A stretch of 13,358 nt of DNA from Promethearchaeia archaeon (GTDB taxonomy: Archaea > Asgardarchaeota > Lokiarchaeia > Sigyniarchaeales > SOKP01). Every line of letters begins with the position of its first letter. Position 1 is the stretch's first letter. Shown piece after piece: positions 10,825-13,358 of the stretch. Under the pieces are notes generated by a model, which worked only from the letters and a program-made list of their open reading frames with translations, was not told the DNA's origin and did not search any database. The DNA lies in assembly GCA_029856045.1 (NCBI GenBank), contig JAHQWG010000054.1, positions 1-13,358 of the forward strand, read 5' to 3'. A program made the position numbers and the translations under genes.

Positions 10825-10861
10825 TTTAAATAAAAAAGTTCCAATGAATAACATATTCATT
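10825..10861 (+). promoter_or_regulatory. Candidate gar1-tfb promoter: TATA box plus downstream inverted repeat
   Basis: TTTAAATA at 10825-10832 preceded by an A-rich BRE-like stretch, then AATGAATA-ACA-TATTCATT (perfect 8-3-8) at 10843-10861. Confidence 0.45.
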
Positions 10862-10888
10862 CTAACAATACTTTTACGTTCCCCTTAC

Positions 10889-11158
10889 ATGACTTGGATC
10901 AAATTAAACTTAAATTTCATTGGAACTTCTAAAAAAAATCAGATTTTTAGGTCAAGAGCATTCAAAAAGGGACAATTTAATATTTATAGTCCAGTATTCG
11001 ATAAAAAAATGAATATGATTGGACACATAAAAGATATTTTTGGTCCGGTAGATATGCCATTTGTTTCACTTCAACAGGATACAAACACTAAGCAAGTTGA
11101 TTTTGACTTCTCCTCTGAATCTCTTTTTACAAAAATGAAGAAATCAAAAAAAAAGTAG
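10889..11158 (+). CDS. gar1: H/ACA ribonucleoprotein subunit Gar1/Naf1 family
   Basis: VFDKKMNMIGHIKDIFGPVDMPFVSL matches the archaeal Gar1 core (V.D....IG.V.DIFGPV..PY). gar1 upstream of tfb is a known archaeal synteny. ATG 10889 is preferred over 10844, which lies inside the promoter palindrome. Confidence 0.8.
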   Translation: MTWIKLNLNFIGTSKKNQIFRSRAFKKGQFNIYSPVFDKKMNMIGHIKDIFGPVDMPFVSLQQDTNTKQVDFDFSSESLFTKMKKSKKK

Positions 11159-12166
11159 CTGACTAAAAAAAATTTTTCCCCCAAAATTAAAAAAGGTGTT
11201 AAAGACATCGGAAATTGGAAATTAAAATTTAAAAATCAACCTTTATTTGATGATATTTGCCCTGAATGTGATAGTAAACTAATTATTTATGATGAAAATA
11301 GAGGACAAATGATTTGTGAATATTGTGGACTTGTAATAAAGGAAAAATTCATTGATAAAGGTCCAGAGTGGCGAGCTTTTGATGCAGATCAAAAAAAGAA
11401 ACGAACTCGTGTAGGAGCACCCATGACATATCTTATTCATGACATGGGGCTTAGTACGATGATTGATTGGAAAAATAAAGATATATACGGCAAAGAAATT
11501 CCAGCAAAACTCCGAGGGCAAATATATAGGCTAAGAAAATGGCAAAGTAGAATACGTGTATCGGATGCTACAGAGCGAAATCTAACATTTGCACTAAGTG
11601 AATTAGATAGAATGGCATCAAATTTAGATTTGCCCAAAAATTTAAGGGAAACAGCCGCAAAAGTCTATCGTGACGCGGTAGATGCTCATCTAATACGTGG
11701 AAGAAGTATTGAGGGCGTTGCTGCAGCTTCCTTGTATGCAGCGTGTAGAATATATAAAATACCAAGAACTCTAAACGAAATTTCTGAAATTGCAAGAGTA
11801 AATAAAAAAGAGATTGGGCGCTCCTTCAGATTTATCTCCCATGAATTAAACTTAAATCTGAATCCAACAAAACCTTTTGATTATATAACACGCTTTACCT
11901 CTGAACTAAAATTGTCTCAAACTTGTCAAAAAATTGCAATGAAAATTATCGAAATTGCAGAATCTCGAGGTTTAATTTCAGGGCGTGGCCCAACCGGCGT
12001 GGCTGCAGCAGCAATCTATTTCGCTTCTATTTTATCGAAAGAAAAACGTACCCAAAGGGATATTGCTCGAATTAGTCAGGTCACAGAAGTAACTGTGCGT
12101 AATAGATATAAAGAATTAGCTGAAAATTTGAATTTTAAACTTCCTTTCAGAAGAAATACCTATTAA
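11159..12166 (+). CDS. tfb: Transcription initiation factor IIB (TFB); true start uncertain but upstream of the ORF-track ATG 11309
   Basis: Full Zn ribbon CPEC-x16-CEYCG (first Cys at 11258), B-reader GPEWRAF...RVGAP, LRKWQ.R.R...ERNL, two cyclin repeats ([16 protein letters not shown]; [14 protein letters not shown]) and [22 protein letters not shown]. The frame is open back to CTG 11159. Confidence 0.95.
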
Positions 12167-12290
12167 AAAAGAAAAGTGATTTTTGACTTTCTTGTAATGC
12201 CATAAAATATCTTAACTCCAATAATTTTCTTCAAAAAAAAATTAAGGCTACGAATTTTAACTCTTAATTTATTTTACGTCTTTCATTTAA

Positions 12291-12347
12291 ATATTATCTT
12301 CATATTCTTTTATTTTAAAAGGAAGATTAAATTTGATTAGCTTAAAG
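12291..12347 (+). repeat. Non-coding repeat copy 1 (57 nt), candidate promoter cassette
   Basis: 44/57 ungapped identity (manual count) to 12801-12857 at an offset of exactly 510, including the exact 16-mer ATATTATCTTCATATT and a 20/23 match over GATYAAATTTGATTA..TTAAAG. Confidence 0.8.
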
Positions 12348-12390
12348 TTATTATCATAACAAATTTAGTTATCAAGAAAGTTAAGAAAAA

Positions 12391-12660
12391 ATGAATGGAG
12401 AAAATATCAAATTGATTAAGAATTTACTTAATCTAGATGATATTAATGAGGAAAGTGTTATTAAATTCTTAAAGCATATAAAAAATACTAAAGAAATTAA
12501 AAAATCACCTGAAATTATATCAGATCATGATCCAACGCGAATTTTAGCAGCGGCAGCCATAATAATGGCAAATAAATTGTCAAAAGAAAAAAATGTATCG
12601 GATAAATCTATTCAAAAACGTTTTAGAGAATTAATAAGGAGTTTAAATATAAAACTCTAA
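12391..12660 (+). CDS. Mini-TFB: stand-alone divergent TFIIB/cyclin-box repeat with an internal HTH deletion
   Basis: ISDHDPTRILAAAAIIMANKLSKEK--NVSDKSIQKRFRELIRSLNIKL aligns with [24 protein letters not shown][[10 protein letters not shown]][22 protein letters not shown] of the adjacent TFB; 23/46 identical by manual count. Confidence 0.75.
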   Translation: MNGENIKLIKNLLNLDDINEESVIKFLKHIKNTKEIKKSPEIISDHDPTRILAAAAIIMANKLSKEKNVSDKSIQKRFRELIRSLNIKL

Positions 12661-12800
12661 TTTTTAAAAAATCAACTTTAATTTTTTTGCAAATCTCAGT
12701 TTAACCTTCAATTTTTTATTACATCTCCTTTAAAGAATATAATTTTGCATTAAATTCCAGTTCAATATAAATTTATCCATTACCTCATTTTCTTCGCATT

Positions 12801-12857
12801 ATATTATCTTCATATTATACAGTTTAAAAAAATCGATCAAATTTGATTAAATTAAAG
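12801..12857 (+). repeat. Non-coding repeat copy 2 (57 nt), candidate promoter cassette
   Basis: Counterpart of 12291-12347. It ends 40 nt before ATG 12898; copy 1 ends 43 nt before ATG 12391. Confidence 0.8.
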
Positions 12858-12897
12858 AAATATTGAAAATTTTAATTAAAATTTAGTCTGTTGAATT

Positions 12898-13233
12898 ATG
12901 CTCATAACTCAGCAAATGGTTGATGAACTCTTAAAAAAAATTAAAAAAACCTTTCCAAATTTTATTGCAGGAGTTTTATCCGATGAAAATGGATTCCCAA
13001 TTGCATCAAAGATTCCAAAAAAGTTAAAAATTGATGAGGATTTTTTTGCATTAGCTGCGACTGATGTAAGAATTGCGAATGATTTTATGGATTTCTCAAA
13101 ATACACAAAAGTTATGAAAGAAATTGGAAAAAAAGAGAAAATAAAATTATTGGTTTTATTGAAGAAATCTGCAAAATATTCGCATAAATTTCAGCAGTTA
13201 AATGAAGTACTCTCTAAACAATCTCTTTTCTAA
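12898..13233 (+). CDS. Roadblock/LC7-like small protein (divergent)
   Basis: N-terminal helix VDELLKKIKKTFPN followed by FIAGVLSDENGFPIAS resembles the roadblock helix + beta-hairpin pattern (...DG..IAS). The C-terminal half is less recognisable. Confidence 0.55.
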   Translation: MLITQQMVDELLKKIKKTFPNFIAGVLSDENGFPIASKIPKKLKIDEDFFALAATDVRIANDFMDFSKYTKVMKEIGKKEKIKLLVLLKKSAKYSHKFQQLNEVLSKQSLF

Positions 13234-13358
13234 AAATATGGTTAAATTTTTTAATCTCCTCCTCCTAAATAGTATAATAAAGTTAGTTGTTTATTTATTA
13301 TATTAGGGTTTTTAAATAAAGAAAAGAAAACTTATTTGAAGCTCAAATTTAAAGATAA

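What the first reader, a model, noticed from the sequence alone, without database searches (positions are those of the whole stretch)
12391..12660. A 'mini-TFB' next to tfb: single cyclin repeat missing part of the BRE-binding HTH
Seen: the unannotated 89-aa ORF aligns end to end with repeat 2 of the neighbouring TFB (ENIKLIKNLLNLDDINEESVIKFL vs [24 protein letters not shown]; C-terminal half 23/46 identical, sharing AAAAI, LSKEK and LN.KL). It has a clean in-frame 10-aa deletion ([10 protein letters not shown]), and the basic SGRGP loop has become acidic SDHDP. It has no Zn ribbon, B-reader or repeat 1. Established: in archaeal TFB the C-terminal HTH of repeat 2 reads the BRE, the cyclin repeats contact TBP, and the known truncated paralog TFB3 of Sulfolobales keeps the Zn ribbon instead, so this is the opposite truncation. 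Inference: an intact ORF with mostly conservative substitutions despite heavy nucleotide divergence suggests selection. It could be a non-DNA-binding modulator or decoy of pre-initiation complex assembly, or a free cyclin-box interaction module, which would be of interest in a probable Asgard archaeon.
Basis: partly seen in the sequence, partly recalled or inferred. Interest (0 to 1): 0.82.

Follow-up and report, generated by a model that had tools for sequence, protein, structure and literature searches.

The report
Young chimeric gene: roadblock piece fused to TFB piece
The 89-codon ORF next to tfb is a real, recently born gene of one Lokiarchaeial clade, but it is not a stand-alone cyclin repeat: a tandem duplication across the tfb/roadblock gene boundary fused the middle of the roadblock gene to the tail of TFB and gave the fusion a copy of the roadblock promoter.

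Summary
The ORF (12391-12660, +) exists and is intact. Its last ~57 residues are homologous to the end of cyclin repeat 2 of the adjacent TFB (BLASTP E 2e-9; profile-profile 97% probability, E 2.5e-11). The claimed end-to-end alignment fails: residues 1-~34 do not match TFB. They derive from residues 45-79 (helix alpha2 + strand beta3) of the downstream roadblock-fold gene rb1. This is clearest in a 47%-identical orthologue (protein E 3e-9; DNA z = 14). The order of the homologous blocks, a second copy of the rb1 promoter/palindrome 100 nt upstream of the ORF, and an in-phase shared heptamer GAAATTG at the junction all fit one tandem duplication followed by two deletions. The gene occurs only in one clade within a genus (five lineages); the sister species and all other genera have tfb-rb1 or lack it. 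It is under purifying selection (dN/dS 0.28, CI 0.12-0.61; only 0.6% of neutral simulations keep the frame open). It lacks H1', most of H2' and H4', so it cannot be a canonical cyclin repeat or read the BRE. Its function is unknown. The scan flagged the same 'mini-TFB' in another genome (unchecked note).

The parts
11207..12166 (+). tfb (parent 1). Probable CDS from a non-canonical ATC start; the open frame runs from 11159.
   Evidence: Pfam TFIIB repeat 3.5e-49 and Zn ribbon 3.7e-17. Conserved GGTG-N7/8-ATT/ATC pattern across the family.
11951..12142 (+). TFB source segment: frame codons 265-328, covering the end of H2', the H2'-H3' loop, H3', H4' and H5'.
   Evidence: BLASTP, hhalign. The heptamer GAAATTG sits in phase 0 at 11951.
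12291..12347 (+). Copy 1 of the rb1 promoter/operator-like element (palindromic ATATTATC-N3-ATAT, then a TATA-like TTTAAAA), 100 nt upstream of the mini ATG.
   Evidence: 57-nt direct repeat, 77% identical, spacing 510. Alignment z = 6.9 against shuffles. Only these two good sites in the genome. Invariant in 4 species.
12391..12660 (+). The chimeric ORF (89 aa + stop).
   Evidence: Orthologues. Selection.
12391..12492 (+). rb1-derived part (residues 1-34). It corresponds to rb1 codons 45-74 (alpha2 and the start of beta3). The ATG aligns with the rb1 Ile45 codon ATT.
   Evidence: Orthologue P0005 1-35 against its own rb1 45-79: 15/35 identical, E 3e-9. 115-nt repeat at 71%. DNA z = 14.2. Window repeat D2. 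hhalign P 0.003. Alignment.
12493..12499 (+). Junction: GAAATTA, at the spot where both parents carry GAAATTG in the same codon phase.
12493..12657 (+). TFB-derived part (residues 35-89): end of H2', acidic loop, H3', then H5'. The 30-nt in-frame deletion of H4' lies between 12591 and 12592.
12801..12857 (+). Copy 2 (the ancestral copy) of the promoter/operator-like element, 97 nt upstream of the rb1 ATG.
   Evidence: The same motif lies 83-100 nt upstream of rb1 in G003 and in six other genera.
12898..13233 (+). rb1 (parent 2), a 111-aa roadblock-fold protein.
   Evidence: AlphaFold pLDDT 78, pTM 0.71. Foldseek top hits are Asgard roadblock structures 7f8m, 9jue and 7yh1, then MglB and LAMTOR, all at probability 1.00.
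13030..13126 (+). rb1 source segment (codons 45-77: alpha2 47-63, beta3 69-76). GAAATTG at 13120-13126.

Best explanation
The ORF is a young, clade-restricted protein-coding gene born by a tandem duplication of roughly 0.6-0.7 kb. The duplicated stretch began inside cyclin repeat 2 of tfb (frame codon 265). It ran through the tfb stop and the intergenic region that holds the promoter/palindrome of the roadblock gene rb1, and ended inside rb1 (about codon 76). The joint fused rb1 in frame to the tail of tfb at a heptamer both genes share in the same codon phase.

Three later changes are inferred. A deletion of about 105-125 nt removed the copied rb1 5' end (codons 1-37). An ATT-to-ATG change at the Ile45 position gave a new start. 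A 30-nt in-frame deletion removed TFB helix H4'.

The product is therefore roadblock alpha2/beta3 followed by the TFB H2' end, H3' and H5'. It is preceded by a copy of the rb1 promoter element, so it is probably a separate transcription unit co-regulated with rb1-rb2. It is kept by purifying selection but evolves about four times faster than TFB at the protein level.

It cannot form a canonical five-helix cyclin repeat or the three-helix HTH that reads the BRE. Its most likely role (inference, weak) is a small all-helical protein-protein interaction module in the tfb / roadblock neighbourhood, not a DNA-binding TFB paralogue.

Shown: homology of each half, block order, distribution, selection. 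Inferred: order of the events, promoter activity, function.
For: TFB half:
- BLASTP E 2e-9; hhalign 97.3% probability, E 2.5e-11, mini 33-89 only.
- The eight best PDB profile hits are all TFB/TFIIB, matching mini 41/46-89.
- The adjacent tfb is a better match than the other paralogues.

rb1 half:
- Orthologue P0005 residues 1-35 against its neighbour rb1 45-79: 43% identical, ungapped, E 3e-9.
- 115-nt ungapped DNA repeat at 71%.
- Local DNA score 71 against 23.8 +/- 3.3 in 1000 codon shuffles.
- In the window itself: repeat D2, hhalign P 0.003, alignment.

Block order TFB-C | IG | promoter | rb1-mid' :: TFB-C' | IG | promoter | rb1.

Junction heptamer in phase 0 in both parents and in both genomes.

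Ancestral state:
- tfb is followed directly by rb1-rb2 in 8+ genera, with the same palindrome 83-100 nt upstream of rb1.
- Carriers form one clade (support 98-99); the sister species G003 lacks the gene.
- A HMMER scan of 1.84 billion representatives finds only this family.

Selection:
- dN/dS 0.28 (bootstrap 0.115-0.61), against 0.06 for tfb and 0.17 for rb1 at dS ~1.4.
- 0.6% of neutral simulations stay open, and none of 3000 reaches the observed pN/pS.
- The two indels between the orthologues are both in frame.
Against: - Within the window's own genome the rb1 origin is weak when taken alone: BLASTP is not significant and the DNA score is within shuffles. It rests on the orthologue plus orthology of the two mini proteins (E 2e-15).
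- TFB and mini show no DNA-level similarity, while the rb1 part does in L065. So the two halves may differ in age or rate, or gene conversion may have refreshed the rb1 part. L065's mini is closer to its own rb1 (71% nt) than to other rb1 genes (59-62%).
- Among the four closest species dN/dS is 0.22-0.80 on very few changes.
- There are no expression data.
- The fold of the product is uncertain: pLDDT 56.7.
Confidence: 0.8

Rival explanations
1. One reading: a stand-alone, nearly complete second cyclin repeat of TFB (a 'mini-TFB') that acts as a non-DNA-binding decoy or modulator of TBP-TFB-promoter assembly.
For: The C-terminal 57 residues are true TFB homologues. H3' and much of H5' are conserved between the distant orthologues and TFB. 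BLASTP of P0005 against TFB stretches, with an extra 10-residue gap, into a 12-residue match with H1'.
Against: The match with H1' is short and needs a second large gap. The same residues match rb1 over 35 ungapped residues at E 3e-9, with DNA support. The profile comparison stops at mini residue 33. Residues that are invariant in TFB across the order (the GRGPTG loop, H4', the start of H5') are deleted or changed, and they vary between mini orthologues. There is no significant cyclin-fold hit and the Pfam score is below the cut-off.
Confidence: 0.1
2. A decaying duplication remnant: an ORF that is open by chance in closely related genomes and has no function.
For: The family is very narrow. 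dN/dS among the four closest species is up to 0.8 on 6-15 changes. The protein evolves fast, 47% identity where TFB keeps 87%.
Against: The frame is open in five lineages across dS ~1.4 in an AT-rich genome. dN/dS is 0.28 with an upper bound of 0.61. Only 0.6% of neutral simulations stay open. The upstream promoter copy is invariant in four species.
Confidence: 0.07
3. The likeness of the N-terminal third to rb1 is secondary: gene conversion from rb1 into an originally pure TFB fragment, or chance likeness of two Lys/Ile/Glu-rich helices.
For: In L065 the mini N-part is closer to its own rb1 than to rb1 of other species. Both sequences have a biased composition.
Against: BLASTP uses composition-adjusted statistics, and codon shuffles keep composition (z = 14). 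The promoter copy, the rb1-like block and the TFB-like block are collinear with the parents in both lineages. The switch point is the shared in-phase heptamer.
Confidence: 0.05

Closest known systems
Second cyclin-like repeat (CLR/HTH2) of archaeal TFB / eukaryotic TFIIB (Pfam PF00382; PDB 1AIS, 1D3U)
   Same: Residues 33-89 are homologous to the end of H2', H3' and H5' of repeat 2 of the adjacent TFB.
   Different: There is no Zn ribbon, B-reader/linker or repeat 1. H1' and most of H2' are replaced by foreign sequence. H4', the middle helix of the three-helix HTH described in PMC4581349, is deleted. The invariant GRGPTG loop is changed. The score is below the Pfam cut-off.
TFB3 of Sulfolobales (truncated TFB paralogue that activates in trans with canonical TFB; PMC7289017, PMC6101594)
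   Same: A shortened derivative of TFB that cannot replace TFB.
   Different: [quoted passage not shown] Here only part of the C-terminal core is kept, and it is fused to part of another gene. The two are not related by descent.
Asgard roadblock (RB) proteins, MglB, LAMTOR (PDB 7F8M, 9JUE, 7YH1; PMC10933270)
   Same: The N-terminal third derives from helix alpha2 and strand beta3 of the roadblock-fold neighbour rb1.
   Different: Only about 35 of about 110 residues are kept. The alpha/beta sandwich cannot form, and the low-confidence model predicts this segment as helical.
Chimeric new genes made by tandem duplications that span a gene boundary (best documented in Drosophila; my recollection, not checked here)
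   Same: Both parents stay intact. The chimera sits between them, carries the 5' region and promoter of the downstream parent and the 3' end of the upstream parent, and is joined at a microhomology.
   Different: This one is in an Asgard archaeon, the parents are a general transcription factor and a roadblock protein, and the product was later trimmed by two deletions and kept under purifying selection.

Membership tests
TFB/TFIIB family | N-terminal Zn ribbon plus B-reader/B-linker | tested here: not met
   The Zn_Ribbon_TF model hits TFB only. The 89-aa protein has no Cys pair.
TFB/TFIIB family | [quoted passage not shown] | tested here: not met
   No PF00382 hit for P0001. P0005 scores 18.8 bits against a 23.6 cut-off. 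Homology covers only mini 33-89.
TFB/TFIIB family | Intact C-terminal HTH of repeat 2 (H3'-H4'-H5') that reads the BRE | tested here: not met
   The 10-residue gap removes H4'. Residues at the start of H5' that are invariant in TFB are substituted. DNA binding itself was not tested.
TFB/TFIIB family | Descent from a TFB gene | tested here: met
   hhalign 97.3% probability, E 2.5e-11. The adjacent tfb is the best of four paralogues.
Roadblock/LC7 (Robl_LC7, MglB-like) | Complete alpha-beta-beta-alpha-beta-beta(-beta)-alpha sandwich | tested here: not met
   Only rb1 residues 45-79 are represented. The mini model is all-helical with low confidence. rb1 itself meets the feature.
Chimeric gene born by tandem duplication across a gene boundary | The chimera lies between two intact parents, its blocks are collinear with them, and the regulatory region of the downstream parent is duplicated | tested here: met
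   The ancestral gene order without the chimera is seen in the sister species and other genera.
Functional protein-coding gene | Purifying selection on the reading frame | tested here: met
   dN/dS 0.28 (0.115-0.61). Neutral simulation.
Functional protein-coding gene | Transcript and protein detected | not testable with these tools
   No expression data are at hand.

The most novel reading that the evidence does not exclude
The chimera is a physical coupler between the two systems it was built from. The retained roadblock alpha2/beta3 segment forms the dimer interface in roadblock proteins (by my recollection). It could dock onto rb1 or rb2. The retained TFB helices could contact TFB (for example its Zn ribbon) or TBP. 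This would tie a roadblock/GTPase-type signalling module to transcription initiation in an Asgard archaeon. The conserved tfb-rb1-rb2 linkage across the order would then reflect an older functional link.
Probability: 0.1. Interest if true: 0.8.

Novelty: new variant of a known kind. Interest (0 to 1): 0.55.

Why it matters
This is an unusually complete record of how a new gene arises in an archaeon. Both parents, the copied promoter, the in-frame joint at a shared heptamer, the later trimming, the ancestral gene order in the sister species and the onset of purifying selection can all be read from sequence. It also corrects an attractive but wrong reading (a free cyclin repeat or 'mini-TFB'). 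That reading had been raised twice in this scan and could otherwise spread into annotation. If the protein does touch TFB or the roadblock pair, it offers a handle on why tfb and two roadblock genes are linked across Lokiarchaeia.

Tried and rejected
- phmmer of the protein against PDB sequences gave only chance hits to ribosome-recycling factor.
- Pfam on P0001 gave nothing relevant.
- AlphaFold2 with the 4-sequence alignment gave pLDDT 56.7 and pTM 0.34. Foldseek of that model against PDB found no match with E <= 0.001. TFIIB chains head the list at E ~2 and TM 0.28, which is not evidence.
- Complex prediction of mini with rb1 gave no verdict (score 0.00, partner fold uncertain). It counts neither for nor against binding.
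- DNA-level alignment of TFB repeat 2 with the ORF is not above shuffles.
- My first model was a ~510-nt duplication unit whose chimera began with the rb1 N-terminus (note). I dropped it when the match proved to be to rb1 residues 45-79, and revised it to a longer unit plus a deletion.
- P0006, an 881-aa repeat protein hit by the profile search, is an artefact of ten summed weak repeats.
- The profile of rb1 against PDB sequences gave no significant roadblock hit. The fold search was needed to identify rb1.

Full report
**What is there.** The window is a whole 13.4-kb contig of a 3.34-Mb genome. One source names an orthologue's organism Candidatus Lokiarchaeota archaeon. The gene order on the + strand is gar1-like (10844-11158), tfb (open frame from 11159, stop at 12166), the 89-codon ORF (12391-12660) and a 111-codon gene here called rb1 (12898-13233). 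In relatives a ~160-codon gene, rb2, follows. tfb carries a Zn ribbon and two TFIIB repeats.

**Check of the observation.**
- BLASTP aligns ORF residues 35-89 with TFB frame residues 265-328: 26/65 identical, E 2e-9, with a 10-residue gap at [10 protein letters not shown] and SDHDP in place of SGRGP.
- A profile of six ORF orthologues against a profile of 15 TFB repeat-2 sequences gives 97.3% probability and E 2.5e-11, but only for ORF residues 33-89. H1' and H2' were present in the TFB profile.
- The eight best PDB sequences for the ORF profile are all TFB/TFIIB and again match only residues 41/46-89.
- Of the genome's four full-length TFB paralogues, the adjacent one is the best match.
- So the TFB descent, the deletion and the loop change are real. 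The 'end to end' alignment is not.

**Where the N-terminal third comes from.**
- A HMMER scan of 1.84 billion representative proteins found only this family: the close cluster and one distant member, P0005 (81 aa, 47% identical, E 2e-15 to the window's protein).
- P0005 lies on a contig with the same order tfb - ORF - rb1 - rb2.
- Its residues 1-35 align without gaps to residues 45-79 of its own rb1: 15/35 identical, 27/35 similar, E 3e-9.
- At DNA level there is a 115-nt ungapped repeat at 71% identity. The local alignment score is 71 against 23.8 +/- 3.3 in 1000 codon shuffles.
- In the window the same relation is fainter but sits at the same place: repeat 12458-12504 / 13085-13131, hhalign ORF 9-41 against rb1 46-81 at P 0.003, and the multiple alignment.
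- The ORF's ATG aligns with the rb1 Ile45 codon ATT.

**What rb1 is.** Its AlphaFold model (pLDDT 78, pTM 0.71) has the element order alpha-beta-beta-alpha-beta-beta-alpha. Its best Foldseek hits are the Asgard roadblock structures 7F8M, 9JUE and 7YH1, followed by MglB and LAMTOR, all at probability 1.00 (structures described in PMC10933270). Residues 45-79 are helix alpha2 (47-63) and strand beta3 (69-76).

**How it arose.**
- In eight or more other genera of the family, tfb is followed directly by rb1 and rb2 with no ORF in between.
- In G003 and six other genera, a palindromic motif (ATAWTATC-N3-ATAT) followed by a TATA-like box lies 83-100 nt upstream of rb1.
- In the window this element occurs twice: 97 nt upstream of rb1 (12801-12857) and 100 nt upstream of the ORF (12291-12347). 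The two copies are 77% identical, z = 6.9, and there is no other good site in the genome. The distant orthologue's contig has the same two copies.
- Along the chromosome the homologous blocks run: TFB tail, intergenic, promoter, rb1-middle copy joined to TFB-tail copy, intergenic, promoter, rb1. This is the order expected from one tandem duplication that started in tfb codon 265 and ended near rb1 codon 76.
- At the switch point both parents, in both genomes, carry GAAATTG in codon phase 0. The ORF has GAAATTA (or AAAATTG) there, with rb1-like sequence before it and TFB-like sequence after it. A joint at this heptamer is automatically in frame.
- Relative to rb1, the copy lacks about 105-125 nt, covering the end of the 5' UTR and codons 1-37. 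Relative to TFB it lacks 30 nt (H4').
- The order of these events is inferred, not shown.

**Age and distribution.**
- Intact 89-codon orthologues (88-91% identical) are present in three of four other species of the genus, always between tfb and rb1.
- None was found in 36 further genomes of the family and order.
- In a tree of the TFB C-terminal part plus rb1, the five carriers form one clade (support 98-99). G003 is its sister (99).
- In G003, which is 69% complete, tfb and rb1-rb2 lie on different contigs and neither has the ORF.
- The gene was therefore born on the stem of this clade, or slightly earlier and then lost in G003.

**Selection.**
- Among the four close species there are too few changes to decide: dN/dS is 0.22-0.80.
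- Against the distant orthologue (dS ~1.4) dN/dS is 0.28 (bootstrap 0.115-0.61). The values for the TFB C-terminal part and rb1 are 0.06 and 0.17.
- The TFB-derived half looks more constrained (0.15) than the rb1-derived half (0.54).
- In 3000 neutral simulations at the observed divergence, 0.6% kept the frame open and none reached the observed pN/pS.
- The two indels between the orthologues are in frame.
- The ORF is thus a real gene, under weaker constraint than its parents.

**What it can and cannot do.**
- TFB/TFIIB repeats are five-helix bundles whose last three helices form the HTH. The HTH of repeat 2 binds the BRE (PMC4581349, PMC7289017).
- The ORF keeps the first and third of these helices, lacks the middle one, and lacks H1' and most of H2'.
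- The loop and the H5' residues that are invariant in TFB across the order are changed, and they differ between ORF orthologues.
- A canonical cyclin repeat and canonical BRE reading are therefore excluded by the sequence. This is an inference from architecture; binding was not tested.
- The predicted structure is all-helical but has low confidence, and no fold match is significant.
- The function stays open. The copied promoter suggests co-regulation with rb1-rb2. My preferred but weakly supported reading is a small protein-protein interaction module.

**Relation to earlier notes of this scan.**
I reached the duplication independently before reading those notes. My analysis extends it: the unit reaches into rb1 and the product is a chimera.
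- A first-reader note on another genome gives the same 'mini-TFB' reading. It is unchecked, and the present result applies to it if that ORF is an orthologue.

Noticed in passing
window 11195-11209 (and tfb orthologues in L036-L060): tfb has no ATG/GTG/TTG before its Zn ribbon. Across the family there is a conserved GGTG, then 7-8 nt, then ATT (ATC in this genus), followed by a conserved I-S-S-W-K-E-type peptide. In six genomes a stop codon lies directly before the ATT. This points to a conserved AUU/AUC initiation codon with an SD-like GGUG, possibly a translational control point. It does not fit amber read-through from gar1, because the frame relation to gar1 differs among congeners. Orthologues in the neighbouring family start with a normal ATG.
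   Followed up: partly
window 11159-13358; loci L042-L064: tfb is linked to rb1 and a second, longer roadblock-like gene rb2 across the family. In a second family of the order rb1 is divergently oriented next to tfb. This is a conserved neighbourhood of a general transcription factor and two roadblock-fold proteins. rb2 gives only sub-threshold Pfam hits to Robl_LC7 and MAPKK1_Int.
   Followed up: partly
window 12801-12857 and upstream of rb1 in G003, G005, G006, G016, G017, G023, G024: A palindromic motif (ATAWTATC-N3-ATAT) a few bases upstream of a TATA-like box is conserved 83-100 nt before the rb1 start across genera. It looks like an operator overlapping the BRE position. No binding factor is known.
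   Followed up: partly
L065:876-979 versus L065:1396-1499: In the distant lineage the rb1-derived part of the chimera is closer to its own genome's rb1 (71% nt) than to rb1 of other species (59-62%). Synonymous divergence of this half between the orthologues is also lower (0.76 against 2.5). This hints at gene conversion between the chimera and rb1.
   Followed up: partly
G000:C44:119034-119147 (locus L030): Besides four full-length TFB paralogues, the genome has a weak partial TFIIB-repeat match in a 161-codon open frame that runs into a contig end. It may be a fifth paralogue cut by the assembly.
   Followed up: no
window 12415-12435: The window's clade has seven extra residues near the N-terminus of the chimera compared with the distant orthologue. 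This in-frame indel lies in the rb1-derived part.
   Followed up: no
window 10844-11158: The ORF upstream of tfb matches Pfam Gar1/Naf1 only below the cut-off (25.3 against 29.3 bits). Its listed ATG start gives an odd hydrophobic N-terminus, so the true start may be further downstream.
   Followed up: no
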